NCBI GenBank assembly: GCA_051362555.1
Contig: CM120645.1
Coordinates: forward strand, 1,736,001-1,800,000
DNA from: Lingula anatina
Taxonomy: Eukaryota; Animalia; Brachiopoda
Length of the DNA stretch: 64,000 bases
Direction of reading: 5' to 3'
Both the position numbers and the translations under genes were made by a program. Numbering within the stretch: the stretch's first letter is position 1; every line of letters starts with the position of its first letter. Below the pieces are notes generated by a model. It was given only the letters and a program-made list of their open reading frames with translations. It did no database searches and was not told the DNA's origin. Positions 6,794 to 57,551 of the stretch are shown in pieces.

Positions 6794-7544
6794 ACGCAGA
6801 TTCTACGGCGTACCCTACGAGACAGAAGTTGGTGATTGTTGGGGATGGCGCCTGTGGTAAATCCTGCCTGCTCAACGTGTTTACACAGGACGACTTTACC
6901 CTCAGCTATATTCCCACCGTCTTTGAGAACTACGTAACCGACATAGAAGTGGATGGAAAACAGGTGCGACTCTTTTGTAGTATTTTTTTAAAATTAAATT
7001 GAAGACTTGAGAGTTAAAATTGTCTGTTATAAAATATAGTGTTCATCCGTTCATTTGATTTAAGCTCTTCTCTCTCTCATATATTCCTACTGTTTTTAAT
7101 TAGAAATAATGTTTTTTATTTCAGATCGAGTTGACACTTTGGGATACTGCCGGCCAGGAAGATTACGACCGTTTACGGCCCTTATCTTATCCCGATACTG
7201 ACGTCATACTAATGTGTTACTCTACAGACAGTCCTGACAGCCTGGCCAACATCGCCGAAAAATGGGCCCCGGAGATCAACCACTTTTGTCCCAATGTTCC
7301 TGTAGTTCTAGTGGCAAATAAAAAGGACTTGAAAAAAGATGAAGAGATCATTACTAAACTGGCAAAGCTGAACGAAAAGCCGGTGGACTACATGGCTGGG
7401 GAAGACACTGCGGCAAAAATTGGTGCTTTTTCTTTCCTTGAGTGTTCGGCGAAAACGCGAGAGGGCGTTAGAGACGTATTTGAGCCTGCCACGAGAGCGA
7501 CACTGTTGAAAAGGAAACGCCGTAAGATCCATCGCAGATGTTAA
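6794..7544 (+). pseudogene. RhoX copy 1: divergent RhoA-like GTPase with no visible start codon and no CAAX
   Basis: Exons 6794-6963 and 7125-7544 joined at the conserved GKQ|(V/I)E intron. Motifs [31 protein letters not shown]. Ends ...RKIHRRC*. No in-frame ATG in the first exon, which needs a phase-1 upstream exon that I could not find. Confidence 0.7.
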
Positions 7545-9658: not shown

Positions 9659-9934
9659 ATGGGATTGTGGTCGTGTCTATACAACGGTGAGGAGTAACTC
9701 TCGTTTTCATTTTTTGATATCATTTTACTATTACCTTTAAAAATAAATATCTAATACAAAGTAACATTTTAAAATGATTATTACAGATCAGTTTAATCGT
9801 TGTTTCCGCGTTGAACACTATTTTTAATTGATGTAATACTGTTCTTGTGTTATCTGAGGGTAGTATAAAAGATGGGAAAATGATGAGTAAGCGAGGATAC
9901 GAGAGGAATTATAGATTATTTGTGATAATATTTG

Positions 9935-9973
<39 letters not shown>

Positions 9974-10391
9974 AAATGTTATTATACGGCAAGTGAAATA
10001 CATTTTCATTTTCAGATAGGTCTTCTAACGCTCACCAGCCACGCAAAACAATAATCATTCTTGGAGACGAGGGGTGTGGAAAATCTTGTCTAGTCAGCGT
10101 TTTCACAAAGGACGATTTCGCCATAAACCGTCTTCCTGTCCCTTCCACGAGTAATATTTCATACATAGAACGGCAGTTTAAATGTTGCGCTGCATATCAT
10201 TTCAACCCATGTTCTCATTATCAACAATATCAAAAAATCTTACATATATTTAGTTTGTTCCACACTTGAATAATAAAGAAAAACGTCTGTTTTAAAATTG
10301 ATGCAGGACCCGCATGATAAAAGCGAGAAAATTTCAAAATTTTACATTCAATCTCTCTGTTAATCCCCCCTCACACGAAACCCTGGAACCA

Positions 10392-10469
<78 letters not shown>

Positions 10470-11031
10470 GAGTGAATATCGATAAAGTAAATTGTGAGTG
10501 TGGTATTTATATCTTTAGCTGTAATATCATATTTTTTTAACTTTTAGTTTTACTTTTAGTACTTTATAACTTATTGCTTCTGTATCAGAAATGCCGATTT
10601 TGAAAACTTCCTTCCAGATTGAACTTATCCTCCGAGAACCAGCGGGGCTAGATGACGTCACCAGGCTTAACTCCCTTTCAGGCAACAAAAAGGACGCTTT
10701 ACTGTGTTATTCAATTGACAGTCCCTGCAGTTTTCAAAATGCCTCATACAAATGGGCACCAGAGATCAACAAACGATGCCCCGATGTTCCCATTGTTTTA
10801 GTTGGAAACAAAAAGGACTTACGAAATGACAAATATACTATTTGTGAACTAGGGACTGTACACGAAGAACCGATTGGTTGGCAAGCGGGACAGAAAATGG
10901 CCGAAAAGTTAAATGCGTTTTCTTATATGGAATGTTGAGCAAAAACGCGGGAAGGAATTCGAGAGTTGTTTGAGACGGCAGCAAAAGCGGCGGTGTTGAA
11001 AAAGAAGTGTCCAACTGTTGTTCGGAAATGA
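9659..11031 (+). pseudogene. RhoY copy 1 (disabled)
   Basis: Exons 9659-9686, 10016-~10169 and 10618-11031. Relative to copy 2, a ~38-bp deletion removes IDGKM and the exon-2 donor, TCA>TGA creates a stop at 10936-10938, and one codon is deleted. Confidence 0.8.
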
Positions 11032-18900: not shown

Positions 18901-18925
18901 TGCCTTACTCTTCCTTGAAAAGGTT

Positions 18926-18966
<41 letters not shown>

Positions 18967-29460: not shown

Positions 29461-30213
29461 ACGCAGATTCTACGGCGTACCCTATGAGACAGAAGTTGGT
29501 GATTGTTGGGGATAGCGCCTGCGGTAAATCCTGCCTGCTCAACGTGTTTACACAGGACGACTTTACCCTCAGCTATATTCCCACCGTCTTTGAGAACTAC
29601 GTAACCGACATAGAAGTGGATGGAAAACAGGTGCGACTCTTTTGTAGTATTTTTTTTTTTAATTAAATTGAAGACTTGAGAGTTAAAATTGTCTGTTATA
29701 AAATATAGCGTTCATCCGTTCATTTGATTTAAGCTCTTCTCTCTCTCATATATTACTACTGTTTTTAATTAGAAATAATGTTTTTTATTTCAGATCGAGT
29801 TGACACTTTGGGATACTGCCGGCCAGGAAGATTACGACCGCTTACGGCCCTTATCTTATCCCGATACTGACGTCATACTAATGTGTTACTCTACAGACAG
29901 TCCCGACAGCCTGGCCAACATCGCCGAAAAACTGGTCCCGGAGATCAACCACTTTTGTCCCAATGTTCTTGTAGTTCTAGTGGCAAATAAAAAGGACTTG
30001 AGAAAAGATGAAGAGATCATTACTAAACTGGCAAAGCTGAACGAAAAGCCGGTGGATTACATGGCCGGGGAAGACACTGCGGCAAAAATTGGTGCTTTTT
30101 CTTTCCTTGAGTGTTCGCCGAAAACGCGAGAGGGCGTTAGGGACGTATTTGAGACTGCCACGAGAGCGACGTTATTGAAAAGGAAACGCCGTAAGATCCA
30201 TCGCAGATGTTAA
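29461..30213 (+). CDS. RhoX copy 2: divergent RhoA-like GTPase, CAAX-less (functional status uncertain)
   Basis: Exons 29461-29630 (ATG at 29484) and 29794-30213. P-loop GDSACGKS, G5 SPK, ends RKIHRRC*. The frame is open but several conserved residues are changed. Confidence 0.6.
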
Positions 30214-32153
30214 TTTTTTTTCACTCTGTTCTAAAGAAATTTGTCATGAGTGATGCTGGGCAAAGAGAAGCAAAGTAAAGACAATCATGGTATTAAAAAA
30301 TAAATATATTTCAAGTAATGCTGCAATACCTTCTGCTATACATGTACAATTAGGCTATATGTGGCATCAGTCGTTTTTTTTTTTTTTTTTTCTTTTTTTT
30401 TTGTAATTATACACATTAAGTGTCCTTCATAATAAATATTTGTTGTTAACCAACCGTTAAGTTTTGACATTCGATAACTTTCAGGTATTTTTTGGATGAA
30501 TTACAATCGCGATTTTTCTTAACGATATTTAAGGCATATAAATGGTGTTTCCAGACCCTCGTCATCTGTGAAGAATATGACTCTTAAACTATAAAATTGA
30601 TACTATTATCGAGGTCTTGGCAGTAAATGTGCAAGCCCGCATCTCTCTTTTTACTATAATCACAACGATACAGCATAGCCCAGTGGCGACCCTCTCTCCC
30701 ACCGCTCTCTCCCACCGCTCTCTCCCACTTTCATTCCATCATAGTAAACGGCAGCAACAAAGAATAACAATATAATGTCTAGCAACAGGCTTGCATTCAG
30801 CAACCAGGGTTCTTTTTGTCGAAAACTGAACCTTTCCTTCCCCTCAGTTGACCCAGCTTGAGATAAGACATAGAATTTAAATCAAGTATTGATTCAGAGG
30901 GGACATTTTCTTGCCAAAAAGACGGGTTTTAACCCCACCCCACCTACATGTAGCCCTGCCTACGGACGTTGTTTACAACTTTTTTATAATATAAACAAGA
31001 TAAGTGATTTATCGGTCACGGAGTAAATGGCTTGACCAAAGTTTTTAGAGTCACCTAAATGATCACTTGTGGGAGTAATTGTCATCTGAACTAACAATTT
31101 AAACTTAACTATACCAAATTAAAGCTAGATAAAATCAAGGAGTTAGTCTGTTGTAACTCCTTGATAAAATCAAGCAACTCTTTTCATCGCTACCTTACAG
31201 TAACACTGATGTGTCATAGACCATAGAAACTTAATGATATATTTTATAGTTGTTGGGGAAAAACACTCTCCTTGAAAGAAAATAGAAAGAAAGTAGATAA
31301 AAAAGTCGTCAGTCAGTGAACTGTGGGGTTTCATCATAGTCCTTCACTCTTCAAGGTTCGTTACACAACTGATGTGTATTTTCCCTGTCCTGGTGAAAAT
31401 AAAGGATGGAAAATGGGAAGCCCCACTTTCTGAAATGCCAATAATATTGATAAGATTAATAATAAGCATTATTATTATTACTATTATTATATCTATTATA
31501 ATAAAAATATACATAAAAGAAAGAATGAACACTTAAATAAACCAATTCAAAAAGTTGTCTTTATATTTATTTTCTATTGCAATGTGCAAAATGAGAAACA
31601 ATACCACACCAGAAAAAGTACATCAATATCATTTCGTAAAATTAACCGCGGTTAATAACAGATTTTAAAAGAATGCATAAATTAATATTTAAGTATTAAA
31701 TATTAGATTAACATTATAACAAAAAGTGTAGTGTAATATTAAATTTAAAAAAGCTAATTTTAAGTTAAAACGTAGATAAAAATGTAACAATACAGTGTCA
31801 ACAATCAGCCGACCTCTATCGCCGAAAAATTGTTTTTTATTATTCAGTTCAAAACATTTTTAAATTTAACAATTTGATGAGAGAGAGAAAGAGAGTGAAG
31901 GAGAGATTTGACATGTAAATATGCAAATAATGATAGTGCAAAGGCTATGCACAGCAATCTTCCAAAAAATCTTCACCCAGTCATTACTCTATAAATAAAC
32001 CACCCAGTGAGGCTATTTTTAGCATTACGGACCTCCATTATAAAAGAGCGTGGTTCGCCCGGCTAGTCATTTTCCAGCACTAGAGAATGGCCACAAAGAT
32101 CACAGATAAATAGTGTAAATAACAGGTACATATATGTTTTTTTAACCAAGACG

Positions 32154-32426
32154 ATGGGATTGTGGTCGTGTCTATACAACGGTGAGGAGTAACTCTCGTT
32201 TTCATTTTTTGATATCATTTTACTATTACCTTTAAAAATAGATATCTAAATACAAAGTAACATTTTTAAATGATTATTACAGATCAGTTTAATCGTTGTT
32301 TCCGCGTTGAACACTATTTTTATTGATTTAATACTGTTCTTGTGTTATCTGAGGGCAGTATAAAAGATGGGGAAATGAGTTAGCGAGGATACGAGAGGAA
32401 TTATAGATTATTTGTGATAATATTTG

Positions 32427-32469
<43 letters not shown>

Positions 32470-32935
32470 AAATGTTATAATACGGCAAGTGAAATACATT
32501 TTCATTTTCAGATAGGTCTTCTAAAGCTCACCAGCCACGCAAAACAATAATCATTCTTGGAGACGAGGGTTGTGGAAAATCTTGTCTAGTCAGCGTTTTC
32601 ACAAAGGACGATTTCGCCATAAACCGTCTTCCTGTCCCTTCCACGAGTAATATTTCATACATAGAAATTGATGGCAAAATGGTGATTATTTTTTCATATG
32701 GACAAACGGCAGTTTAAATGTTGCGCTGCATATCATTTTAACCCATGTTCTCATTATCAACAATATCAAAAAATCTTACATATATATATTTAGTTTGTTC
32801 CACACTTGAATAATAAAGAAAAACGTCTGTTTTAAAATTGATGCAGGACCCGCATGATAAAAGCGAGAAAATTTCAAAATTTTACATTCAATCTCTGTGT
32901 TAATCCCCCCCCCTCACACGAAACCCTGGAACCAT

Positions 32936-33007
<72 letters not shown>

Positions 33008-33579
33008 TTTTCTAGAGTGAATATCGAGAAAATAAATTTTGAGTGTGGTATTTATATCTTTAGCTGTAATATCATATTTTTTAACTTTTAGTTTTACTTT
33101 TAGTACTTTTAAAACTTATTGCTTCTGTATCAGAAATGCTGATTTTGAAAACTTCCTTCCAGATTGAACTTATCCTCCGAGAACCAGCGGGGCTAGATGA
33201 CGTCACCAGGCTTAACTCCCTTTCAGGCAACAAAAAGGACGCTGTTTTACTGTGTTATTCAATTGACAATCCCTGCAGTTTTAGAAATGCCTCATACAAA
33301 TGGGCACCAGAGATCAACAAACGATGCCCGGATGTTCCCATTGTATTAGTTGGAAACAAAAAGGACTTACGAAATGACAAATATACTATTTGTGAACTAG
33401 GGACTCTACACGAAGAACCGATTGGTTGGCAAGCGGGACAGAAAATGGCCGAAAAGATAAATGCGTTTTCTTATATGGAATGTTCAGCAAAAACGCGGGA
33501 AGGAATTCGAGAGTTGTTTGAGACGGCAGCAAGAGCGGCGGCGTTGAAAAAGAAGTATCCAACTGTTGTTCGGAAATAA
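32154..33579 (+). CDS. RhoY copy 2: atypical Rho GTPase (204 aa) with N-terminal MGLWSC and no CAAX
   Basis: Exons 32154-32181, 32512-32681 and 33163-33579 join in frame. Motifs GDEGCGKS, EPAGL (for DTAGQ), NKKD, SAK. Ends KKKYPTVVRK*. Confidence 0.8.
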
Positions 33580-33880
33580 TAATAATAATTATTATTATTA
33601 TTATTACTTAGGAATAATCTAAGCACGTCAGCACGGCTGAAAGTGCATACATATCAATTTTACAAACTGCTACCGTATTGATAATTACAGTATATGAGGC
33701 TTCCAGAAGGACGTGTTGTCCTGTAATTAGCAATTAACCATATTTCTTAATAGATTCTTAAAAGTATATATTTTGTGAAGCAACATCTAACTTCGCATGC
33801 AGTATGCAAACATTAAGTTAAACTCCATAATGCAATTAGAAATAATTATTTTCTACGCAAAGACCCTTATATATGGGGAG

Positions 33881-33953
<73 letters not shown>

Positions 33954-34789
33954 TTTCATGGACACAGCTGAAACCCGGAAAACTAGCTGTATCAAAAACG
34001 AAATAAATACTTTGATGCTTATCTCAGCGTTTAAATGCAAATATACGTTTCTATAGTATAACCTGTTTAGATTAAGCTCATGCATAAAAACGAGGAAATG
34101 ATTTGCTTCTTGCATGTTCAATGCCCAGAATCTATTACGACAGTGAGTTATGTTGATGTAGGCGTGTGCGTTGGTCCATCCAAAGCCGCCGTTTATTTCT
34201 GCATACTTGATTCACTGATTATCATCAGTCTATCTTTAGTTGTATTCAGTGCTGATATTACTTAACTTTATTTTCAAAATCTGATTTAACAAGGAGCTAA
34301 TTTTTCTCTGTGGGCAAACCTTTAATCCACGTGATTTTGATTTCATTTTATTTTGTTACATAAGCCATTCATGTTATCAAAATGCTTTGTGGTGTACTTG
34401 GTAAAAAAATGCCCAACTTAAATGACTTTTTTAAAATATAAACTAAAAACGCTTATTTAAAGACCTTTATTCCTATCTCTATACGCTTTGGCAAAGATAT
34501 CAAATATCAATCAGTTTGGAAATGGTTATAGGTATTAGGGGATTCTTGCACGCTTTTTTCTTTGAATAATGCATAAATTACGGACAATGAAATATTTATT
34601 TTTCATGTTGATATTTCATTCGTGGCGGCCTTTCGAGATACATGGATAATCTTCATTTCAATTTTCTGTATTCCATCATTGGGCTTCGTCAATAAATTTA
34701 AATTATAGAAGAAAATTGTAGTCTTTAGAAACTCAGCTTGACTTGGGCAGATCATCCCTCTAGCTCAGTTTTTGGTATTGCACATATCT

Positions 34790-37700
34790 TTAACAAGAGA
34801 TAGATATCCTAAAGAAGCCATAGGAAGTGTACGCCCCGCACACACCTATTGCATACGTCCCAATGGGTAGGTCTCCTTGCGGGATCTGGAGCAGAGAGGT
34901 AAAGCCGCCACAAACGGGACTGTCGTCATTCCAGTGCATAAAGTGATATCCGCGGATGCCGCATATCTGAAGTCCACCGCGTTCAATAAATAACGTCGCA
35001 TCACAGGCAAAAAGAACCACCATCGTGTCGAAGGTGGCGGCATTGCATGTGGATATACTGATGTTGTTACACCCCGAGTAACTGATGCTGTATTGTAACG
35101 GTACCAGGTCGAAATCAACAAATCGAAAGCGGCTGCTGAAGGAGTAGGTTGTACCGTCACACCTGACTTGTCGAACGTCCGCTGTAAGTGTAAATATAAT
35201 TTTTAAACTAGCATTTGACTTTCACATTGGCCACAATATTTTGCAATAATAATGATAATTTAAGCAGCTACCACATATATATAATTTCCGAAACTGAACT
35301 CTAAAAGTTCTTAAAAGTAAAATAACAATACAAATAATTATAAATAATAATAATAATTAAAGATAAAAATAATTAAGTTTAATACTAGTATGTTAAAAGA
35401 TTAATCGTATAATATACAAAAAATACAGTAAGTAAAAAGTAGGGAAAGCATAAACTAAGCTGCGTACGTAACTTTAAGACCCCAAACGGCATGATTTTTA
35501 CATCGTTTTTATGTACAGACACACCGCGCCTGGTGTACAGGGACACATTGTGCACGGTGGAAAATTTCTAGACAAAACTGGATAACTTCCTTGCTAGTAT
35601 ACTATATATATAGACCAACCCACACTGGTGACCACCATAAGGTGGAAAAACTTAACAAGTAAAGAGAAAGTAAGTAAAACCCCTTTTACACTAGACGGCG
35701 TCCTTTCTGCGTCCCGTACGTACATGTAGTACGGCCCCGTTTGAGAGTAAAAAAAGTAATACTTTACGTGCCAACAACTTGCAGATCAATGAGCATTCAT
35801 TCTGCAACCACGGCGATGCCTGTTTCATGGTCGCACAAAGGACGCAGAAAGGACGCCGTCTAGTGTAAAGGGGGTGTATGTAAGAAAGTAAGCATTAAAT
35901 GATATTGTATCAAAGTTGAAGAAAACCATGTTTTGGGCACCGATGCTATAATGACCAACAAAGGAAGACTTTGTTACTTATGATTATCAAACATACAGAA
36001 AAGATTAATAGAACTGAAGTACAGCTTGAGTTGGAAAACCATATATTTATAATTTCATTATTTTTCTGGAAGAAATGCTTTTTTTTTTTGGCAAAAATGT
36101 TGGACTTAGAACTCCCACTGGCATGACGCCTTATGGTAGTTATATATTCTTAGTATCCACGTTAGATAAATTAAAAATTGTTGGTGACTATGCTTTGTTG
36201 TCAAGCATAATGTATTATTGCATCAAAACTGTCAAAATTTTTTTTTGCATTATTGTGTGTTCATCTGACAGTTTTGCTGCCTTATTGACTTCCCTTTCTA
36301 CACACTGGTATGTAGGTAAAAAAAAGATGCCATACTTACGACAATATCTTGGAATTATAGCTGAAAAAATTGATAAGAAGAAATATAGTAGATAAGTACA
36401 TTAATGATATACTGTATATACACACACTGGACAATAGGAGTGTCACCCCTACTGAACCAATACTTTGGGGGAGAGAAATGACTGTGGAATGATATGCTCC
36501 TGGTATCATTTTATTAACATCAAATTTCACAAAAAGACCAACAATACAATTCCATGGTACAGCGGTTTTATACTCATTAGTCGCATTATAAGTAGATCAG
36601 GCATTATAAACTTTGATTACTCTGTTTCAGGGGGTGAAGGGGGTGACACTTCTCTTGTCCAGTGTGTGTACAAGTAATCAGTATATTGTACAACTTCTGC
36701 CACCACTTCTGCCGATAAATTTATGTGAAGATATTAATTCTTAATGTCAAAACACACACCAGTTTCCCAACATACCAACAATTTTTTGTTCACTGCGTTT
36801 TTTAATTATCCTATAACGTGAATCGTAAGGTAATATTCATTACCACAATTATTTTCAATTTTAAAAAACATATCTTACATATCTTAAATATAGAAGTCTA
36901 TAGACTATTTCTATACAGCAAATTAAATTTCCCGCTCCACTGCTTTTTTGTCGAACTCATTAGATGAACAATGATAAAAACCAACTAGTTTTACCAATTA
37001 TTTTCTATTTCTGGCTATAGAAAGATAGAAGTTGAGAGGGCATGTTTGCAAATCAAATGTAATGTTTGATGTAATACTTACGACATGTCGGTATATCTAG
37101 GGGAAAAAAAAGGCAATATTAAACACAATGGAGTATCACTTGAATATATAATCATTCAAACAATTATCATTTAAACACTGACATTTTCGTCATTTCAGAT
37201 CCGGCGACAAATGTATGTTATCCTTTAAAATAGAGTTTAGTTGATTCCATCAATGACAAAATAGTGGAATTTAATGCTGAATTACCAAAAGAACTCAACG
37301 TTAACACAGATGCTCATAGATAACTATGTGAGGGAGTGAAGCGGTTAATTACGATTGGGTTTATTTACTCCCTCGATTATGTAGAAGTCGGAACAAAACA
37401 AAAAGGAGTCCATAAGGTTTCCTTCAAATGGTAACACAATTTGAAAAGAAAAGTATAAAGACTAAGTTTCCTTCTAACTTTAGAACTAATATCTCAACCT
37501 CAAACCCACTCCCCCTTTCGTAATGGTACTAATACACAATGCAGTACTGCACCAATGCAATGAAGCCTATCACTGCCAGTTCTCACCTAGAATGCAATTT
37601 TGTGGATCTGGATCAGAAGGGTTGAACACGTATCCCTCTTTACACACACAGACCCGAGGTTCTGGACAAGGTAAACTTTGACCTTCTTCATTGATAGTAT

Positions 37701-40700
37701 TCTGGCAGTTCGACAATATTTTATCCACTACCTCACAACATCTGGTATTACTACCACACACAACTGGTGGCCTCACCAAAATTTATGAAACAGAAGACAA
37801 AACTTATCAACACAGGGAAATTAATTTATATAGATTTCAATTCAGAACATGATGCCAGGATTATTGTGCTTCTGTGCGCATCCTTCTACAGTGTGTAACA
37901 TGAAAGACAGTGCGCCATACAAAACATTGCCAACGTGACAAATGACTATGGGTATACAATACACGTTTTCAACCATTGTAACTTAAAATGCTGCATAAGA
38001 TCTTAAGTTTAATAATGAAGTCATATGCACAATATACACCAATACTTTGGGGGAGATAAATGACTGTGGAATGATATGCTCCTGGTATCAGTTTATTAAC
38101 AAGTTTACAAGTTTAAATATGGTTGTATCAAAATCACAAACACAAAGCATAAAGAGTGCCTTACTCTTTCGTGAAGAGGTAAAAAAGCAGAACTTAAACC
38201 AGCAAAGACAGTAGGCCAAAACATGGCCAAATTCCATCCAATGTGACGTATGACGATGCGGGTACACGATACCCACTTTTAAGTTATATGTCACGTGTAC
38301 GCAAACCATGATTAAAAATATTATTTCTACATATACTGTTATGAGATCTAAAGTTTAACGATAAAGTCATCTGCACAATATATACATGTTAAATTACAAA
38401 TTTAAATATGGTAGTATCGAAATCACAAACATAAAGCATAAAGAGTGCCTTACTCTTCCTTGAAAAGGAAAAAAGCAGAACGTTAACCAGCAATGAAAGT
38501 CCTCACCTGGCACGCAATTTTGTGGATCTGGATCAGAAGGGTTGAACATGTATCCCTCTTCACACACACAGACCAGAGGTTCTGGACAAGGTAAACTTTG
38601 ACCTTCTTCATTGTTAGTATTCTGACAGTTTGACACTGTATTGTTATCCATTATCTCACAGCATCTGGTATTATTACCACACACAACTGGGGGCCTCACT
38701 TCAATTTATGAAACAGAAGTCAAGACTTGTCAACATAAGGAAATGAATTTATATAGATTTAATTTTGGAACATAATGTCTTGATCACTGCATTTCTGTGT
38801 GTATCCTTTTAGAACATTATTTTAGAACTCATTAATTTTAGGACATTGTGGCAAATTCATGCTTATATGTTTATACTTCTAACATGGGATACAGTGTGCC
38901 ATAAAGAGTAATGCCAAATTCCACCCACTGCGATGTGTGATGACTGGTATACAACACTTGTTTTCCAAGCAGTGTAAATTACAATACTACATGTCGTGCA
39001 TATATATGCAATATTATTTTTCAATATATTGATATAAGATCTAAAGTTTTATAGTGAAATCATATGTACAATATACACATGTGTACAAGTTTAAGTACGA
39101 TAGTATTAAAATCATGAACACAAATCATTGAGAGTTCCATACTTTTCTTGAAAGGTAAAAAAGCAAAACTTTAACCAGCAATGAAATTTCTCACCTGGAA
39201 CGCAATTTTGTGGATCTGGATCAGAAGAGTTGAACATGTATCCCTCATCACACACACAGACCAGAGGTTCTGGACAAGGTAAACTTTGACCTTCTTCATT
39301 GGTAGTATTCTGGCAGTTTGACACTGTACTGTTATCCACTATCTCACAGCATCTGGTATTATTACCACACACAACTGGGGGCCTCACTTCAAGTTATGAA
39401 ACAGAAGTCAAGACTTGTCAACACAAGGAAATGAATTTATATAATTTAATTTTGGAACATTATGTCTTGACCATTGCATTTCTGTGTGTATCCTTCTAAC
39501 ATGAGGTACAGTGTGTCATATAAAACACTGCCAAATTATACCCACTTTGACAAGGGCGATGGTCATCTGACATCATTTTAAAACCAGTGTCATTTACAAA
39601 GCTACATGTCATGCGTACTCAAACAATGATAAAAATTTTTCTTCTACACATTGTTATAAGATCTTTAGATTAATAATAAAGTCATCTGCACAATACATAC
39701 ATGTTGACAACTTTAAATATGGTAGTATTGAAATCACAAACACAAAGCATAAAAAGTGTCTCACTCTTATTGAAAAGGTAAAAAAAAGCAAAACTTTAAC
39801 CAGCAAAGTGAGTTCTCACCTGGAACGCAATTTTGTGGATCTGGATCAGAAGAGTTGAACATGTATCCCTCATCACACACACAGACCAGAGGTTCTGGAC
39901 AAGGTAAACTTTGACCTTCTTCATTGGTAGTATTCTGACAGTTTGACACTGTACTGTTATCCACTACATCACAACATCTGGTATTATTACCACACACAAC
40001 TGGGGGCCTCACTTCAATTTATGAAAAAGAAGTCAAAACTCATGAATAATTTTAGAACATCATTTTAGAACTCATTAATTTTAGGACATTGTGGCAAATT
40101 CATGCTCTTATGTTCATACTTCTAACATGGGATACAGTGTGCCATAAAGAGTAATGCCAAATTCCACCCACTGCGATGTGTGATGACTGGTATACAACAC
40201 TTGTTTTCCAACCAGTGTAAATTACAATGCTACATGTCACACACACACACACACACACACATATATGCCATGTTTAAAAACATTATTTCTCCATATATTG
40301 ATAAAAGATCTAAAGTTAAATAGTAAAGTCATATGTACAATATACACATGTGTACAAGTTTAAGTACGATAGTATTAAAATCATGAACACAAATCATTGA
40401 GAGTGCCTTACTCTTCCTTGGAAAGGAAAAAAAAGCAGAACTTTAACCAGCAATGGAACTTCTCACCTGGAACGCAATTTTGTGGATCTGGATCAGAAGA
40501 GTTGGACATGTATCCCTCTTCACACACACAGACCCGAGGTTCTGGACAAGGTAAACTTTGACCTTCTTCATTGGTAGTATTCTGACAGTTTGAAACTGTA
40601 CTGTTATCCACTATCTCACAGCATCTGGTATTATTACCACACACAACTGGGGGCCTCACTTTAATTTATGAAACAGAAGTCAAACCTTGTCAACACAAGG

Positions 40701-41513
40701 AAATGAATTTATATAGATTTAATTTTGGAACATTATGTCTTGATCATTGCATTTCTGTGTGTATCCTTCTAACATGAGGTACAGTGTGTCATATAAAACA
40801 CTGCCAAATTATACCCACTTTGACAAGGGCGATGGTCATCTGACATTTTCCAACTAGTGTAAATTACAAAGCTACATGTCACGCGTACTCAAACAATGAT
40901 AAAAATTTTTCTTCTACACATTGTTATAAGATCTTTAGATTAATAATGAAGTCATCTGCACAATACATACATGTTGACAACTTTAAATATGGTAGTATTG
41001 AAATCACAAACACAAAGCATAAAGAGTGTCTCACTCTTATTGAAAAGGTAAAAAAGCAGAACTTTAACCAGCAATGAAAGTTCTCACCTGGAACGCAATT
41101 TTGTGGATCTGGATCAGAAGAGTTGAACATGTATCCCTCTTCACACACACAGACCAGAGGTTCTTGACAAGGTAAACTTTGACCTTCTGCATTGGTAGTA
41201 TTCTGGCAGTTTGACACTGTATTGTTATCCACTACCTCACAGCATCTGGTATTATTACCACACACAACTGGGGGCCTCACTTCAATTTATGAAACAAAAG
41301 ACAAAGCTCATGAATAATTTTAGAACATTATTTTTGAACTCATTAATTTTAGGACACTGTGGCAAATTCATGCTTATACGCTCGTATGTTTATACTTCTA
41401 ACATGGGATACAGTGTGCCATAAACAGCATTGCCAAATTCCACGCACTGCAATGTGTGACGACTGGTATACAACACCTGTTTTCCAAGCAGTGTAAATGA
41501 CAAAGCTACATGT

Positions 41514-41593
<80 letters not shown>

Positions 41594-44500: not shown

Positions 44501-45052
44501 CTTGGAGTTCTCCCCACACACGGGTCTTGGCGAAGGTTTTTTACACCCCTTGCCTTGACTACCGCACTCTTGGCAGCGTATACGTGAGAAGGCGAGGTGC
44601 GATGGCTTAGCGTGCCCGCTGCCGTGTTTGCGTGGATGCCCAGGACATGCTCGGGTTATGCAGAAACGACTGTGCCTTGTACGCCCTAAATGTAAATTCA
44701 AGATTTTACAAAGAGTAAAACAGCTTAGACCTATATCATTTTTTGTCTAATTTGTCGAAAAACCTGCATTAAAAAAACGTTTTTGAATTATTACAAGATA
44801 TGATAAAAAGCATGTCATAATGTCCGACCTCGCTTGTAAGTAACGTAAAGCATAATGCTGATGAAACAGGGCCCGATCAAATAAAGTTTGACCAGTCATG
44901 GTAATTTGAAAAAAAGAAACTAGCATCTATCTTTATAATACTTGATGGTGAATTACAAAAGCCGTAATTTAGCACTTACGAATTCTGGCGAGCGCATACA
45001 GTGCAACCAAAACCAAAATCAGACAAAGGAGCAATGTCCTGTACATCTTCAT
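34790..45052 (-). CDS. Secreted Cys-rich repeat protein with PPC-like C-terminal domain, copy 3 (complete model)
   Basis: Signal exon 45052-44980. Basic exon 44685-44356. Nine repeat exons: 43819-43628, 43189-42998, 42333-42142, 41279-41088, 40658-40467, 40011-39820, 39386-39195, 38698-38507, 37763-37587. Micro-exons 37096-37082 and 36360-36340. Terminal exon 35181-34790. Frame is open throughout. Confidence 0.8.
35679..35875. mobile_element. MITE with ~35-bp TIRs
   Basis: CCCCTTTTACACTAGACGGCGTCCTTTCTGCGTCC at the left end and its near-perfect reverse complement at the right end. Confidence 0.8.
36421..36668. mobile_element. Tc1/mariner-type MITE (TA target duplication)
   Basis: TIR CACACACTGGACAA.AG.AGTGTCACCCC with TA on both sides. 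The TA-rich site is empty in unit 2 (~16455). Confidence 0.8.
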
Positions 45053-48559: not shown

Positions 48560-48916
<357 letters not shown>

Positions 48917-50431
48917 TGACACTAGTTGAGTGGGATTTGTTCAGTCTGACTGGTTGATAAACCAGGAAGAAGGGGAAGGTTTGGGAGGGGGTTACTATAC
49001 TGATAAAGGACACCTTATCATAACATTATCATTGTGTTAGTCACAGTTCAAGTCATTTTGGGGCTTTGTTATTATTCAAGGGTTATTAATGTGCAAAACA
49101 AAGTATGTACTTCAGGTACTGTTTTTTTTTTTCTTTTTTTAAAACTATATTTGGCTGTGAAGATCAAACACACTTGCCAAATGTTAATTTACTCTAGGGT
49201 CAAAGTATGTGTCCATGTGATATATATCAGTAAATAGTGATATAAGAGTGAAATGTTAGTCCTTCTTCTTTAAAGAGGTCAAGCCCTTCTGCAGTGGTTT
49301 CTAAATGCTGCATACAAGACTTATCAGTTTCTTAACACATCTTCTTTGATGTCCTCAATGGCTGAGCAGGTGGCGTGACTTACGTTTATTTTACTCGAAA
49401 CTTGTACGCCCTATTTCATAAGTGATACATGACAGCGAAAGAGCTTTGTAAAGTTCATGTAGACGGGTGTTGGAGAGAGAGCTGCGAGTGCACCGCGAAA
49501 GCCGAGTCCGAGTCTTAAGCTATAACGGTGAGTTGAATGTCACAGTGTTTTGCATGTTTTTTAGGTAGTGGAAGAGCCTTGTGTGTTTTCTGGGATTGGT
49601 TGGGAAGTTGGTCAACTGTGTGAGTGTGTGTGTGGTCTAGTGAGCCCATTGATGCTTGTCGCTTTAGCTGTTTTATTATCATCATTTTTTTAAAATTCGT
49701 ACGCTGCCTATTGCATCATTCCACCTTGATAAGAATTTCACCCTCATATGAAAACATCCTATACGGCTTACGCAGAGATAAATGGTCTTGTAAAGCCAAT
49801 ATGTAGAGCAGCAATAGCAAGTTCAAAATGTGGACTGCATAGTGGTTTTACAACAGAGTCATGGAAATTGGTAGTCCTGCTTGCATGGGTGTGATTTATG
49901 AGCTATGCTTAAATTTTTATGGAATTTCATCCCAGATTTTGTGCAGGAAACCCATACAATCAATCAATCAGTTTGATTTCACCATTTGCATGAGGACTTC
50001 TGCTGTTATTGTTCAGTTATCCTGTGCTATTTTGCCTGACTTTCAGTATTTGTTGCTTGGTATTAGTCTCATTGCATGTTGCCCACTTGCATGTTATATG
50101 TGGAAGTTTCAGAGAAAAAAAAAAAGTTTTGTGTTTAAAGTGATTGTAAACACAAATCAGATGCCTGTCTGTTTCTGTTCTCAAGTGAAATGTTTCAATA
50201 TGATTATTTAATCTGCATGCTTTGTTCTTAGAAGATGTATTGTTGATTTACTGTTGAATTTGACGTTATGTAGTGGAATTAGATTTAGATGCTTCAGAAC
50301 AGAATTTGCAGTCAGTTTACAACCACAATTTTTAACTACACTCAAGTTGCCTGCATAGTAGGTAGTAATTAGCACACTATTTATGAAGATCAAAAAGAAA
50401 TGGAAAAAAAATAGATGTTGCAGTTAAATGT

Positions 50432-50603
50432 CTGGGGTAGTGCTAACACTCGTCAATTTAGCCAAATGCTAAAACTGACTCTAATTGGCTAAACAAAAAA
50501 GGTTGATTTGACTTGTTTAAGTCAAATTTAAACCATTTGGAGAAATAAGTGTTGAAAAAGTAGTAATTTGGCTAAACGAAAATAATTGCTAGCACCACCC
50601 CAG
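50432..50603. mobile_element. MITE (CTGGGGTAGTGCTA termini) in the RhoA intron
   Basis: TIRs CTGGGGTAGTGCTAACA / TGCTAGCACCACCCCAG. A second, inverted copy lies at 58964-59136. Confidence 0.7.
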
Positions 50604-50863
50604 AATGTACTACACAAGCTTGATCACGATGGCATGTTCGTATTGTCGTACTGTCCCCTTGATTAGTGTACAAATGATCATGAAGTTCTGCAGAACTTGG
50701 CTAGGATGGCCTGGTTTGAAGGAACAATGGCTCTGGTAGCTACATGAAATATAATATAGATCTGCATTAAATCATTCAGAAAATTACTCTGAAATAGATA
50801 TTTACATTGTGTAGAACGCTTTCACCTCACAAAGATAGTCAAAGGATTTCTTTTTTCTTTCAG

Positions 50864-51289
50864 GTTGAGTTAGCTCTTTGGGATACAGCTGGACAGGAAG
50901 ATTACGACCGCCTTCGACCACTCTCGTATCCAGACACAGACGTCATTCTGATGTGTTTCTCTATCGACAGTCCAGACAGTTTAGAAAATATCCCTGAGAA
51001 GTGGACGCCGGAGGTGAAGCACTTCTGTCCCAACGTCCCAATCATCCTAGTAGGCAACAAGAAAGATCTGCGGAATGATGCTACAACTCAGCGTGAGCTA
51101 CAGAAACTAAAACAAGAGCCTGTGCGGACAGAGGAGGGTCGAGCAATGGCGGAAAAGATTGGTGCTTTTGCATACCTAGAATGCTCGGCAAAGACAAAAG
51201 ATTGCGTTCGTGACGTTTTTGAGACAGCCACACGTGCTGCTTTACAAGTATCAAAAAAGAAGAAGCGCAGGATCTGTAAATTCCTGTAA
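50864..51289 (+). CDS. RHOA: RhoA alternative terminal exon A (193-aa product ending [11 protein letters not shown])
   Basis: Polypyrimidine + CAG acceptor, phase 0, [12 protein letters not shown] to stop. AATAAA at 52285-52290. Confidence 0.92.
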
Positions 51290-54187
51290 TGTTGAAATGT
51301 GAGGGGGGAAAAAGCATTGCTAAACTAGAGATAGAAAAATAAATGATTTGTTTTCCTGTGGATGGTATCTGTGTGGAGATGAAAGTCTGTGAAATTATTT
51401 TTGTAAATCTTTTATCACTTTTTTTCCTTCAGTACTTCAGTTGTGTGTTTAAACTTTAATTCTGAGGACCTGAAACTTAGCTGGAATATGTCACGCTGTG
51501 CCCAGGCTCAGGTTTTGGCCCACTATGTCCTTGTGTTTTGTATATACTTTGGTTTGTGTTTATTTTGAGAAGAATATGCTGTTTGAACATAGGTGCTGAA
51601 AGAATAGATGAACAAACAATTATATGTACGTTAGTGTAGTTTTATAATTTTTAATTCACCATAGTCCCAAGTTAAAAGTGGATGGCATGGTCTTCACTTA
51701 TGAAAAAATAATGATAGAGAAAACTGACTCCACAGGACTGTGGGTATGTATGTGATCCCTTGCACAGAATGCGGTGTTTATTAAAGTTGGCAGTGTACAG
51801 TACTACTACTTGGTAACCAGTAGAATGAACAGCTTATAGGGTCAAATTATCCTAATTTCACGAAGGTCGTAGAGTTCAGCTTGGCTTTGTCATCTAGTTG
51901 GTATGCTGTTTTACTTGCACCTTTGATGAACATTTTATGTAAAAACCTGGTACATTGTGTAGAGCAATGGCAAACCATGAAGTTTGATAGTTGCCCAAAT
52001 GTAACCAAGTATTTGAGTGTCTGCCTATCGCATTACTACAGGAAGATGTGGCTGTTAAGGGGCATTGAACTGTAAGTCCTCCGCGATCATTCTTCGGGCA
52101 TATTTGGGAATCAGCATGATCTGGCCACTGCAGAGCAGTTGCAGATAGTGAAAACTGAAGCTTTCTTTGAATGTATGAAAGTGTATAAAATAAAGAATAT
52201 GTTAGTGCCACTCACTGTTATATACTAAATGATCTGTGTTTAGTCTTGAACTGAATTTATATGTGTGTGTAGTAGTATATAGACAATAAATGAAGTTGTA
52301 AACATTCTAGTTCTGCTTTTGACAAATTTCGTTTCCACTGGAAATTCTTTTACTCTTGAAAACATCCCATGGTGCTGTTTGTGGTTTTGATCTGGGGGAT
52401 TAAAAACTTGCTGAAAGATGTAACATCTTAACTTCCCTTATGTGTAAGGGGAAACAAATCCCCAAGTCTGGAAAATCTTCAGGTTATTTTTTTCAGCAAT
52501 GAAAATGCCCCCCCCCCATCCCCAAACATGGCTAACCCTCTATATATCTGATATTGAAGTGGAGCCGCTCTGCATTTTTTCACTTCTCTCATATTTTCTC
52601 AAAGCAGGCTTGAGGCTGATTTTTATGCTCAAGTGTGTGTATATTTCAAGTGACTTGGACGGGTGTAAAACCTGATCGTATGTCACATCTGGCAATAACT
52701 TAATGAAAACTGCTGCTTGAAATGGTGGAAGAGGCTCCCAGACCTGCTGTGTAAACTGACTCAGGGTGGTGGTGGGACACTGTCTACTGGTGAGTGGAGC
52801 TCTAACTCTAAGCATGCATAGACCTTGTACCTACGTGTCTAGTTTGTCCCCTGACCTTGCCAATCCCCCCCCCCCCCATTATTTACCATCACAATAGGCT
52901 CACTTGGTGAACTCTGCAAAAAAGGAGCATGCTTAATATTTCTTTAATTATTTCTTATTTCTTTGCATGAGAGTGGTTATGGGCTCTTCATCACCCTCCT
53001 TGTTTATCTGGAACCAAAGTTGATGGAGGTGGAGGTGAAATATTGCACAAGATTTCCTCTTTTGAACCAGTTAAATTAATATGACCTGGATAATGAACTT
53101 TTCATAAAATGAGCTCTCTTCAGGGATAAGATTTTTCTTACTATTGGCAGATTTCTGGGAACCAAAGATGTCAGTTTTGACATCCATGCCGATCTGCAAT
53201 ACAAACTTGGGGGGGGGGGGGGGTATTTGGTAGGTCTGGACCCCACCCCACCTTTACTGACTTTTTATGAAATGGCAGTTTCAACCCTGAATAGTTAAGA
53301 GTCCTGTGGGAGGGGGGGGGGGGGGTCTGGCATAGTGGATCCATTTTTTTTTCAGGGACAAACCTGCATTTAAGTTCCATGTATGATGATTTCCACTTCC
53401 TTGTTAATTTTTTCTGTGGTCAGAAGTTCAGCCATGTGGAAAGCAAATTATATATCAATAAAGTGGGGAACTTCAAGACAAAATTACCAATGTTATGAAT
53501 ATAAAGAAATTGGAAGGAGGTTGTGACCATGAAATTGCCACAGGAAATTTTTCATCATTGGTTTTTTATTTTTCATTCGTATATTTATTTGTAGTGTGGA
53601 TAATTGCAAGTTTGGAGTTAGTCCCCACGTGTGATGGGTGTTGTCTCCCTTCCACATACATATGCTGTTAACCCCTTACCTTCAGGATACTGTAAGGGCC
53701 CATTTACAGGTCAACTGTGCCTGTGTGACTTAGTACTTCCTTGGGTTATGTGAATACAACATCTAACCTCTCCCCTTCCCTCCTTGGTGTTGTAGTAAGC
53801 AGCTCTTACTGCTGGAGAGAAGGTGTTGATGGATTAGATTGACTAATAGATGTTTTGTTTAGATATTGTTATCACATGGAAGCTGAACTGACACATTAAA
53901 AAGACCCAATCTGCCTTGATGCCACTTTCACTCTGCTTGTGACACAATTACTCCGGTTTGTTTCACTCTGACCAGTTTTGCACTCCATTGTCCTCTATTT
54001 AAACTGCCATGTTACCATGTTTCTTTTTTTTTTCCTTTTCACGTTTTGGAATCCTTTGCTGCATGGTTTTGTTTTATGCCAGCTATCCCAACCTGAATGT
54101 GACCTCTGATGTATTTGGCATGGTATTAATGGACAAGCACTTTTATAGCAAGTAGCATGTGCACTCAACATTTTACTTCTCTTTCAG

Positions 54188-54610
54188 GTTGAGTTAGCTC
54201 TTTGGGATACAGCTGGGCAGGAGGATTATGACCGCCTTCGACCACTCTCATATCCAGACACAGACGTCATTCTGATGTGTTTCTCCATCGACAGTCCAGA
54301 CAGTTTAGAAAACATCCCTGAGAAGTGGACGCCGGAGGTGAAGCACTTCTGTCCCAACGTCCCAATCATCCTAGTAGGCAACAAGAAGGATCTACGAAAT
54401 GATGCCAACACGATAAAAGAATTGGGCAAAATGAAGCAGGAGCCAGTGAGGCCAGAGGAGGGGCGAGCAATGGCGGAAAAGATTAGTGCTTACGCATACC
54501 TGGAGTGCTCTGCAAAGACTAAAGAGGGAGTGAGAGAGGTATTTGAAACAGCCACACGTGCTGCTCTTCAAACGAAAAAGAAGAAGAAAAAGGGATGCCT
54601 CATCTTGTGA
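54188..54610 (+). CDS. RHOA: RhoA alternative terminal exon B (192-aa product ending [11 protein letters not shown])
   Basis: TTCTCTTTCAG acceptor, intact frame, no N-terminal Rho exon seen between A and B. AATAAA at 56565-56570. Confidence 0.92.
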
Positions 54611-57104
54611 AGCAATTGTTGAAGCACAAATACTGTTAGCCTTTCTGACTTTGATACACAAACACTAAACATACGGCGTATTGTATTGTGGACATATTGT
54701 AATTCGTTTGTGGGAGACGCCTTTGTGTTGAATGATGGAGGAAAATGGAGACATGGGAGATGCATTATAGTGTATAGTACTGACATAGGGAACTCTTTTT
54801 ATGTCATGCCACACGTTAAAATACAGATAACATCTTTTTGGGTAAAAATAGTTGACTGATTTTAACGAGACCATGTGTGTTTTTATTACACGCGAGGCAC
54901 AATACCTCAACCTTTTATCCAAGTCAATTTGATCTCCATAACTTGGATGTAATAGGTCATGTGATTAAGGCCTTCTGACAAGGCCCAAAACCCCTTGCTT
55001 CACTGGAAAAAAACGCATTAGTCCATTAAAAAAAGAAAACTATTTTTTACCAGCATTACACAAAAGCCAATGAAAAAAATGTTTCACTTACCATATTTTT
55101 TGTGAGGCTAGTTGTTTAAAACAAATGTTATTAATATGTATATATACAAATATGCATTCAGCTGTGAAATCAGGTGTCCTCTGATGAATGCATGGCTGAC
55201 GCTTAATTGGGTGGGGGGAGGGGGGGGGACGTATCTGCAGAAATATGTAGAAAAATCTGTTTTCTGTCATTTGAAGCCAACTTTTGTTTGCAGAATCAAG
55301 TTAAATTTCTTAATTTCCTAGATTGATTTATGCATCTCATAATGTTACGCTAATATCGATAACCAGAATGTATGTGGTTAAGAGAAAGCCGTGTGAGATG
55401 AATGTGTGTTGTTTCCATTGAAAACCTTAATTTGTTGCTTCTCTCCAGGAGCTTAAAGAAGAAATTAAAATATACAAAGACAAAATTGTTTTCCAGTTGG
55501 CATTCACTAGGTTTAGATTTGAGATTTGGTATATTTTGATATGTAAATTGACTGTAACAAACAACAGCAATATACATTTGTCACGGGCATAGATGTGACT
55601 AACAGGCAAGGATATAAGAGCATTGACAGAAGGTCAGATTTCTTTTAAAATTGTTCCAAGTGTCATATTAGCAGTAGAAAACGCCACAGTTCAGCTGCAG
55701 TCGTAGGTCAAGTTGTGTTAGGTCCAGCAATGGGAGAATTGATGGTGAAAACGGAAGGGAAATTATTTGGGCTAGAGAGGGAAGTTACATTGCCTTTGGT
55801 TTTTTAGTACCACTACTATTTCTGTTACACAGCAGGTTAGTTTTTCTTAAACTTGAATCCTTATCCCACAGTTCTTCATTTTAACATCACTGATCACTAT
55901 ATCACTAAAAAGATGCTGAGCTCCTCAACTGGCTGTGTGTCAGAATCCCTATGTAGAGAATTGAGTTTATCTGTGAATTTTATAATTGATCACCCTTGGA
56001 GGTGATCCATTACTTATATAAATGTATGTTCAAAAGGATTGGTACTGTCTTGGCATGTGAAGTTGTAATGAGTAGGTGTGCACGCTTCCCATGGAATTCC
56101 AGTACGCTCTTGTGTGCTAATTATTGTAACTAATTCAGAAAAAGCTCAACTAAATCTACCTAAAGTTTGTATGTAGTGATATGTATCTGTTAAATAGCAA
56201 TTTTTTAAGAAGTAGCAAATGATTGTATTTCAATATTAAGTGTATGAAAAATAACTAATCCTTTTTAAAAGCACATTTTGTTTTCTTGTTATTTCCTTCC
56301 CCTTTTCTGTGCTCACTGCAAAGAATTAATGATCTTTTAAATTATATATTTAAGTTAAAGCAAGTGATATTTAAACAATCTTGTATTGTATGAACAGCCC
56401 ACTTTTAATTCCACTGATGCAGATATATGCCAACCTTAGAAAATGTATGTTAACCTGATATTGAAGTGCAAATGCATTTGGGGTCCCTCTTGGGGCAAAC
56501 CAAAAACGGTATGCTTAACCTTTTTTTGTTGTTGTTGCAGAGTTACTTCTTTGTTGAGGTATTGAATAAAAAAATCTTCACAAAGATCAACACAATCTTG
56601 GGGGAAAATATTTTGTAATCTGGATATTTGTTCAGTTGGGATTGGGAAAAATATTTCCCCAAAGTTAAGTACACAAGCTTTAGAGGGGTGGGGGAATTTT
56701 GTAATCTTTATATTCATTCTGGAGAGGAGTGTGTGTGTGTTGGGGGGGGGGGGGGGGCATGCATGTCCAGGAAACTACCTAGAGAATTGGTGCATAAACC
56801 CAGTGAAAGAATACCAACCAACTGGAGAATCCCTCTCTTCCTTTTCAAGATTGGAATAAATTTAATAGTTGTTTGATGTCTCTACCACTGAAATGGGCTG
56901 TAATTATCTCTTGGCAAATTAAAAAAAAAATCATCTTTCACTTCATGTTGACTGAAGTAAAAAGAAAGATAAGAAAATTTATATAAACTTCTTTAGTTCA
57001 TGCAAGCTTAAAGCTATTTTCTGTTTATTAACATTATTATTAATTTTTAGGAGGGGGGTCTGGAATGAATTTATTGGAAATGCATGCTAGAATTAACAAT
57101 TTGA

Positions 57105-57551
<447 letters not shown>

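What the first reader, a model, noticed from the sequence alone, without database searches (positions are those of the whole stretch)
32154..33579. RhoY: a Rho that appears to have swapped C-terminal prenylation for N-terminal acylation and carries GTPase-dead substitutions
Seen: a 28-nt phase-1 exon adds MGLWSCLYN in frame, and the C-terminus (KKKYPTVVRK) lacks CAAX. In RhoA numbering it has G14E, DTAGQ>EPAGL (including Q63L) and a switch I without PTVFENY, while NKKD and SAK are intact. A well-spaced TATA/Inr lies upstream. Known: MGxxx(S/C) with a nearby Cys is a myristoylation/palmitoylation signal, and substitutions at G14 and Q63 block hydrolysis (as in Rnd and RhoH). Inference: an independently evolved atypical Rho or pseudo-GTPase. 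The extra intron lies at about the position of the RhoA 5'UTR intron (11 nt before ATG, phase-1 compatible), suggesting a UTR exon became coding.
Basis: partly seen in the sequence, partly recalled or inferred. Interest (0 to 1): 0.75.

Follow-up and report, generated by a model that had tools for sequence, protein, structure and literature searches.

The report
Front-anchored, switch-dead Rho in a brachiopod
A lamp shell (Lingula) carries an intact, weakly transcribed copy of the cell-shape switch gene RhoA that has lost its usual tail-end lipid signal and its on/off switch residues, and it likely works as a fixed adaptor held on membranes by a fatty acid predicted to be added at its front end.

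Summary
Three GT-AG exons give a 204-aa RhoA-derived protein starting MGLWSCLYN, with no CaaX. It has G14E, T37V, F39S, D59E, T60P and Q63L; G1, G4 and G5 are intact. RefSeq has a 97%-identical tandem copy in Lingula anatina with the same first exon.

(1) The lipid swap predates the GTPase decay: a sister paralog (RhoX, XP_013388299.1) starts MGLFACL, also lacks CaaX and keeps all G motifs, and X+Y form a clade. (2) RhoY is not Rnd-like. Switch I and II are gutted (21 of 32 invariant sites changed, against 22 of 60 elsewhere), so it is better read as a switch-dead pseudo-GTPase.

An intact, gap-free frame at dN of about 0.3 argues for long selection on the lineage, but branch omega=1 was not rejected (saturation). 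RNA support is thin: 7 reads in 41 million, some ending at the exon-2 donor. The exon 1-2 joint and the expressed copy were not shown. A neighbouring copy is dead. Other protostome RhoA models carry Cys-bearing N-terminal extensions, so exon 1 may be an old coding exon rather than a converted UTR. No ortholog was found outside Lingula.

The parts
32039..32046 (+). TATA box (TATAAAAG); a second TATA-like site lies at 31990
   Evidence: sequence only, no transcription start shown
32067..32072 (+). Initiator-like TCATTT, about 30 nt after the TATA box
   Evidence: sequence only
32154..32181 (+). RhoY coding exon 1 (MGLWSCLYN plus 1 nt); fits the NMT motif at positions 2-6
   Evidence: same peptide in RefSeq XP_013388306.1; motif, matched
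32182..32511 (+). Intron 1, phase 1, GT-AG, with an (AG)n tract
32512..32681 (+). RhoY exon 2: P-loop (GDEGCGKS) and degenerate switch I
   Evidence: 7 RNA reads
32682..33162 (+). Intron 2, phase 0, at the same position as in RhoA and RhoX
33163..33579 (+). RhoY exon 3: EPAGL switch II, NKKD, insert helix, SAK, basic tail without CaaX
9659..11031 (+). Dead tandem copy of RhoY (Y1): 40-nt deletion removing the exon-2 donor, a 3-nt deletion, and TGA within SAK
6794..7544 (+). RhoX1: exons 2-3 of the switch-intact, CaaX-less sister paralog; its MGLFACL exon is not in the window
29461..30213 (+). RhoX2: second 5'-truncated RhoX copy with G14S, W99L, P111L and A161P (likely decaying)
48681..57551 (+). 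Parent RhoA locus: one exon 2 (48681-48847) and three CaaX-ending exon-3 copies (50864-51289, 54188-54610, 57129-57551)

Best explanation
RhoY is an intact RhoA-derived paralog of Lingula that has lost CaaX and both switch motifs, and it likely acts as a membrane-fixed pseudo-GTPase adaptor, predicted to be myristoylated on Gly2 and to hold guanine nucleotide without hydrolysing it. History (inferred): RhoA duplicated in tandem. The X/Y ancestor gained or kept an MGLxxCL first exon and lost prenylation (X ends ...RRC*; Y ends ...KKKC/YPTVVRK). X kept the GTPase cycle; Y kept the fold and the G1/G4/G5 nucleotide pocket but lost Thr37, the effector loop and DTAGQ. Mechanism (inferred): co-translational myristoylation, helped by Cys6 palmitoylation and/or the basic tail, gives membrane attachment that prenyl-dependent RhoGDI extraction should not reverse. 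Without Thr37, Phe39, Tyr42, Asp59 and Gln63 it should neither switch nor bind the usual RhoA effectors, so any function would run through other surfaces as a constant scaffold in a few cells or stages. The block holding X and Y was re-duplicated recently, and the copies are turning over.
For: Open 204-aa frame with canonical splice sites and a matching RefSeq model on a sister copy. The NMT motif quoted is met by RhoY and RhoX0; only 4 of 441 fetched proteins match it, 3 of them X/Y sequences. Gly2, Leu3, Cys6 and Leu7 are shared by X0 and Y although fourfold sites in the G domain are randomised (6 of 36 alike). X+Y form a clade at 97/98 and share 14 derived residues, 5 at near-invariant sites. 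Changes cluster in the switches (21 of 32 invariant sites vs 22 of 60; Fisher p=0.009) and are more radical there (mean BLOSUM -0.81 vs +0.27). The 175-codon core is gap-free at branch dN about 0.3; neutral simulation keeps a stop-free frame in 0.4% of 5000 runs and in none when indels are allowed, while the dead copy gathered a stop and two deletions at 2-3% divergence. AlphaFold gives a complete G domain with insert helix, mean pLDDT 88. RNA reads lie on exon 2 in 2 of 4 runs; 4 of 6 reads in X12 run on with unlike letters where depth drops at the donor.
Against: Branch-specific omega is about 0.2, but omega=1 is not rejected (p 0.08-0.12 in 3 of 3 trios). Expression is very low: 7 reads among 41.4 million, none in 2 of 4 runs, and no control gene was laid. 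No joint or loose end reached the tool's listing threshold, 2 of 6 X12 reads run into intron 2, and reads cannot be assigned to this copy. Among the young copies amino-acid changes are not scarce (Y1 vs Y2: 9 non-synonymous including the stop, 5 silent; Y0 vs Y2: 6 residues including L35Q). No ortholog outside L. anatina. Position 7 lacks the preferred Lys/Arg. The AlphaFold model leans on an alignment of canonical Rho proteins. No acylation, nucleotide binding or partner was measured.
Confidence: 0.55

Rival explanations
1. The RhoY lineage was functional, but this copy (32154-33579) is a redundant recent duplicate on its way to becoming a pseudogene, or the whole small family has recently been released from selection.
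For: It sits in a recently repeated block whose other members are broken (Y1 dead; X1 and X2 lack exon 1 in the window; X2 has G14S and A161P). At 2.5% divergence a neutral copy would still be open about a quarter to a half of the time. It alone has lost the tail cysteine (C198Y). Expression is near background.
Against: Frame, splice sites and TATA/Inr are all intact. Most Y1-Y2 amino-acid differences map to the dead copy when the RefSeq copy is used as a third sequence. The RefSeq copy has its own doubtful change (L35Q), so it is not clearly the favoured one.
Confidence: 0.25
2. RhoY is a Rnd/RhoH-style, permanently GTP-loaded and constitutively active Rho that signals through, or competes for, RhoA effectors and regulators.
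For: G14E and Q63L sit at the two classic hydrolysis-blocking positions; G1, G4 and G5 are intact. Rnd proteins are described as GTP-bound and hydrolysis-dead (passages).
Against: Thr37, Tyr34, Phe39, Glu40, Tyr42, Trp58, Asp59, Tyr66 and Arg70 are all replaced. These form the Mg/gamma-phosphate sensor and effector surface (the Thr role passages; the effector residues are recalled).
Confidence: 0.1
3. RhoY no longer binds nucleotide at all (class i pseudo-GTPase) and is a purely structural membrane adaptor.
For: Loss of Thr37 and Asp59 plus a bulky acidic residue at position 14 could abolish Mg-nucleotide binding (inference).
Against: GxxxxGKS, NKKD and SAK are all kept despite about 49% amino-acid divergence, unlike p190RhoGAP pG1, where all five motifs are degraded.
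Confidence: 0.1

Closest known systems
RhoA/Rho1 (parent; human RhoA is the best PDB match, E 1.6e-54)
   Same: Gap-free G domain, insert helix, G1/G4/G5, shared intron-2 position, about 52% identity.
   Different: No CaaX; N-terminal MGLWSCL exon; switch I and II degenerate.
Lingula RhoX (XP_013388299.1)
   Same: Sister paralog in the same cluster; MGLxxCL start, basic tail, no CaaX.
   Different: RhoX keeps PTVFENY and DTAGQ and should cycle normally.
Plant ARA6/RABF1, Plasmodium Rab5b, N-acylated protist Rheb
   Same: Lineage-specific small-GTPase paralogs with N-terminal myristoylation/palmitoylation; ARA6 and Rab5b also lack C-terminal prenylation.
   Different: They are Rab5 or Rheb family members, not Rho, and not animal; acylation is shown experimentally for Rab5b, only predicted here; I recall no switch loss in them.
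Rnd family (class ii pseudo-GTPases); RhoH
   Same: Rho-family fold with substitutions that block hydrolysis.
   Different: RhoY derives from RhoA inside Lingula; it has also lost the switch I effector loop and the DxxG aspartate, which Rnd/RhoH keep, and it is not prenylated (recalled for Rnd/RhoH).
RGK family (class iii pseudo-GTPases)
   Same: Divergent G2/G3 motifs with retained nucleotide binding; no prenylation and a basic tail (recalled).
   Different: Ras-family origin, long extensions, residual hydrolysis; no N-myristoyl signal (recalled).
Yeast Rho3
   Same: A Rho with N-terminal Cys palmitoylation needed for plasma-membrane location; fungal Rho3 clusters are the nearest feature hits of RhoX (lead only).
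   Different: Fungal; Rho3 keeps CaaX and a working switch (recalled).

Membership tests
Rho family, RhoA lineage | Ras-like G domain with Rho insert helix, nearest to RhoA | tested here: met
   Pfam Ras E 3e-34; the top PDB hits are RhoA/B/C; model with helix 139-147
Rho family, RhoA lineage | G1, G4 and G5 motifs | tested here: met
   GDEGCGKS, NKKD, SAK
Canonical cycling Rho GTPase | G2 Thr37 and effector loop | tested here: not met
   T37V, Y34R, V38P, F39S, E40T, Y42N
Canonical cycling Rho GTPase | G3 DxxGQ | tested here: not met
   EPAGL: D59E, T60P, Q63L
Canonical cycling Rho GTPase | C-terminal CaaX | tested here: not met
   Ends KKKYPTVVRK; 133 of 151 canonical fetched proteins have Cys at -4
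Rnd/RhoH atypical Rho | Descent from the Rnd or RhoH clades | tested here: not met
   Nearest are RhoX and RhoA; no Rnd/RhoH among the 60 PDB rows shown; no named Rnd or RhoH was put in the tree
Rnd/RhoH atypical Rho | Hydrolysis-blocking substitutions at RhoA positions 14 and 63 | tested here: met
   G14E, Q63L
Rnd/RhoH atypical Rho | Permanent GTP loading with effector binding | not testable with these tools
   Needs biochemistry; the sequence argues against effector binding
Pseudo-GTPase | [quoted passage not shown] | tested here: met
   G2 and G3 lost, fold kept
Pseudo-GTPase | Class i, ii or iii (nucleotide binding and catalysis) | not testable with these tools
   Class ii is inferred from intact G1/G4/G5
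N-acylated non-prenylated small GTPases (ARA6/Rab5b type) | NMT motif at the N-terminus with a nearby Cys, and no prenylation signal | tested here: met
   M-G-L-W-S-C fits positions 2-6 of the motif; position 7 is Leu, not Lys/Arg
N-acylated non-prenylated small GTPases (ARA6/Rab5b type) | Actual myristoylation and palmitoylation | not testable with these tools
   No predictor or proteomics on hand
ARA6/RABF1 or Rab5b proper | Rab5 ancestry | tested here: not met
   RhoA-derived
Functional (non-pseudogene) locus | Spliced transcript including exon 1, from this copy | tested here: inconclusive
   7 reads on exon 2; no exon 1-2 joint; copy not assignable

The most novel reading that the evidence does not exclude
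Protostome RhoA has an old, overlooked alternative first exon that adds an N-terminal Cys (palmitoylation) peptide. In Lingula this isoform was split off into dedicated genes that gained Gly2 and dropped prenylation altogether: one a working, GDI-free RhoA (RhoX) and one a switch-dead pseudo-GTPase partner (RhoY). These would be animal Rho proteins anchored only from the front, with a natural series from dual-lipid isoform to N-acyl-only enzyme to pseudoenzyme in one gene cluster.
Probability: 0.3. Interest if true: 0.72.

Novelty: new variant of a known kind. Interest (0 to 1): 0.5.

Why it matters
Prenylation and RhoGDI cycling are treated as basic to RhoA biology. A natural RhoA-derived pair, one switch-intact and one switch-dead, both predicted to be anchored by N-terminal acylation, would allow anchor and switch to be tested separately. 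It would extend the prenyl-to-N-acyl swap known from Rab5 and Rheb to animal Rho. The Cys-bearing N-terminal RhoA models in insects, molluscs and a nemertean may matter more widely than RhoY itself. The limit is that RhoY is so far known from one species and is barely transcribed in the samples read.

Tried and rejected
No whole genome is held, so copies upstream of the window are known only from RefSeq proteins. No RNA holder was listed among indexed runs; this is not used as evidence. Pairwise omega values of 0.01-0.03 were set aside because dS is saturated and they mix branches; the branch test is reported instead. The search for an in-frame Cys-bearing first exon of Lingula RhoA found none between 33700 and 48660 (the one hit, at 37592, lies in the repeat array). 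The MGLFACL exon of RhoX is not in the window. Ortholog searches gave only RhoA-like proteins outside Lingula; these searches list top hits only. The Atlas returned molluscan Ras-family clusters of 216 and 225 aa as nearest by features, but gives no sequences, so they were not followed. A cluster look-up for further RhoA isoforms, including Lingula's own, could not be made, which leaves open whether RefSeq lists an extended Lingula RhoA isoform. A possible 26-nt 5' intron just before the ATG was dismissed as too short. Three look-ups of earlier scan findings returned nothing.

Full report
Gene model. Joining 32154-32181, 32512-32681 and 33163-33579 gives 615 nt and 204 residues with GT-AG introns. 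The protein begins MGLWSCLYND and ends KKKYPTVVRK. It aligns without gaps to human RhoA with an offset of 14. TATAAAAG at 32039 and TCATTT at 32067 are spaced as a TATA/Inr pair, and two upstream ATGs lie between them and the start; by eye both open very short frames. A search with exon 3 found one close hit among 645: P0001, 204 aa, 97% identical, Lingula anatina XP_013388306.1; most others were RhoA-like at 53-58%. P0001 starts with the same nine residues and differs at six positions, H16Q, L35Q, R136Q, A191T, A193V and Y198C (compared by eye). It is most likely another tandem copy outside the window, since another in-window gene matches its RefSeq protein closely (P0122).

Surroundings. The window holds a recently repeated block. 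Each of two units has a RhoX gene (6794-7544; 29461-30213) followed by a RhoY gene (9659-11031; 32154-33579), and RhoA proper follows at 48681-57551. The first RhoY copy is dead: a 40-nt deletion removes the exon-2 donor, there is a 3-nt deletion, and SAK carries TGA; its introns differ from the intact copy by about 2%. The in-window RhoX copies have no MGLFACL exon in the window, and RhoX2 carries G14S, W99L, P111L and A161P. RefSeq holds an intact RhoX on the same scaffold as P0001: XP_013388299.1 starts MGLFACLGGNSC, keeps [15 protein letters not shown] and DTAGQ, and ends [11 protein letters not shown] without CaaX.

Order of events. In a tree of 33 G-domain cores the five X and Y rows form one side of a branch at 97/98; the bootstrap had not fully settled and the Y branch is long. 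X and Y share 14 residues that differ from the RhoA consensus, five at sites at least 97% invariant among 151 RhoA cores. Both fit the NMT motif M-G-[^DEFRWY]-X-[^DEKR]-[ACGST] but lack the preferred Lys/Arg at position 7. That motif is quoted in bioRxiv 10.1101/2020.08.25.266692 (passages), which also reports that Ser6-to-Cys keeps membrane binding in a G-alpha-o peptide. Only 4 of 441 fetched proteins match it, three of them X/Y sequences. So the N-terminal signal arose before X and Y split, and the switch decayed afterwards in Y alone. The copies P0001 and Y1 still have a cysteine after the basic run, seven residues from the end, probably the remnant of the CaaX cysteine; this copy has Tyr there.

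What is left of the GTPase. G1 (GDEGCGKS), G4 (NKKD) and G5 (SAK) are intact, and the AlphaFold model of P0001 is a full G domain with the insert helix (mean pLDDT 88.2; N- and C-termini disordered; alignment mostly of canonical Rho). G2 and G3 are lost: T37V, Y34R, V38P, F39S, E40T, Y42N, W58R, D59E, T60P, Q63L, Y66V and R70N. Of RhoA-invariant sites, 21 of 32 in the switches are changed against 22 of 60 elsewhere (p=0.009), with radical changes in the switches and mild ones outside; RhoX shows 2 of 32 and 8 of 60. By the definition in PMC5593906 (passages) this is a pseudo-GTPase. Rnd proteins are class ii there. RhoY shares their blocked hydrolysis positions but, from recalled knowledge, not their intact effector loop, so I read it as switch-dead rather than locked on.

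Selection. Fourfold sites are randomised between Y and X or RhoA (6-7 of 35-36 alike). The branch model gives dN of about 0.3 and omega about 0.2 on the Y branch, but cannot reject omega=1 (p=0.08, 0.12, 0.12). The stronger argument is the frame: at divergence 0.3, 0.4% of 5000 neutral simulations stay stop-free and none survive once indels are allowed at 5% of substitutions. This supports long constraint on the lineage. It says little about this young copy, which would remain open in 24-52% of neutral runs at 2.5% divergence.

Expression. Of nine raw RNA runs listed, four were laid, on exon 2 and short flanks only. X12 gave 6 reads of 12.4 million, X18 gave 1 of 11.1 million, and X15 and X17 gave none of 9.5 and 8.4 million; no control gene was laid. 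In X12 depth falls from 5.8 to 2 at the donor (32681) and 4 of 6 reads continue with 20 or more unlike letters, as spliced reads would; 2 of 6 run about 20 nt into the intron. The single X18 read stops about 6 nt upstream of the acceptor and is ambiguous. No joint or loose end reached the listing threshold. The family is therefore transcribed at a very low level and probably spliced at exon 2. Reads that stop at that donor should not come from Y1, which lacks it. The exon 1-2 joint and the source copy remain unshown.

Origin of exon 1. However, among 229 fetched canonical RhoA proteins, 29 have a Met-initiated extension of 8-30 residues, and 20 of these have a Cys in the first 12. Twelve are near-copies of the beetle type (MFCCWS.../MFSCF...). 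The other eight include a moth (MWWCC), octopus (MSRLLTCL), chiton (MPFDFFRCL), nemertean (MSGLLSFFGCW) and mussel (MRLFDSCF). None has Gly2; the C-termini printed for 19 of the 20 end in CaaX. These are predicted models and I did not see their DNA, so homology to the Lingula exon is a hypothesis. No such exon was found upstream of Lingula RhoA in 33700-48660.

Range and literature. Outside L. anatina no ortholog appeared among the best 120 hits of two word-based searches or the best 150 of a full HMMER scan of 1.84 billion representatives. The prenyl-to-N-acyl swap is known for ARA6 and Plasmodium Rab5b (PMC3912013, abstract and outline; PMC3871812, search listing), and N-terminal acylation for protist Rheb (PMC5869587, abstract and passages, where it is said that such changes typically affect lineage-specific paralogs). 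N-terminal palmitoylation is known for yeast Rho3 (PMC4393305, passages). A review of Rho lipidation lists no N-myristoylated Rho in the passages seen (PMC8393718). PMC10940682 (passages) added nothing. Searches found no paper on Lingula Rho genes or on an N-myristoylated, non-prenylated animal Rho, judged from listings. The library lacks most subscription journals, including older Rho-family surveys, and no supplements were read.

Verdict. A real and unusual gene: a new variant of two known kinds (N-acylated non-prenylated small GTPase; pseudo-GTPase), combined in an animal RhoA paralog. Acylation, nucleotide binding and function are inferred. Its narrow known range, very low expression and unstable tandem setting hold the interest at 0.5.

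Noticed in passing
window 48681-57551: RhoA has one exon 2 and three tandem exon-3 copies, each ending in its own CaaX (CKFL, CLIL, CLLL), suggesting alternative last exons. About 320-aa fused RhoA models in molluscs, an annelid, a nemertean, a sea star, corals and an aphid hint that the duplicated last exon is widespread.
   Followed up: partly
proteins P0035, P0100, P0123, P0127, P0152, P0174 and beetle relatives: RhoA/Rho1 models with short Cys-bearing N-terminal extensions, possibly a conserved palmitoylated isoform of protostome RhoA.
   Followed up: partly
P0020 (XP_013388299.1); window 6794-7544 and 29461-30213: RhoX: switch-intact RhoA paralog with MGLFACL start and a tail ending in a terminal Cys (RRC*), no CaaX. 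Arguably as interesting as RhoY.
   Followed up: partly
window about 18000-25800 and 37500-44800, minus strand: Tandem arrays of Cys-rich exon-like frames (…CGNNTRCCEVV…CPEP…CVCEEG…); one variant has a weak cEGF match below the cut-off, another no Pfam match.
   Followed up: no
window 12388-12795 and 34790-35221, minus strand: Duplicated 135-143-aa open frame with conserved cysteines; the 34790 copy had no Pfam match.
   Followed up: no
window 13662-15854 (+) and 2541-3275 (-): Frames that look like decayed non-LTR retrotransposon remains (endonuclease/reverse-transcriptase-like, judged by eye).
   Followed up: no
P0121 (UPI00078A1225); window 3855-4052: A 397-aa database model fuses the RefSeq RhoY copy, a second RhoY exon 3 and a frame at 3855-4052; probably a mis-joined prediction, but it implies a further RhoY exon 3 upstream of the window.
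   Followed up: partly
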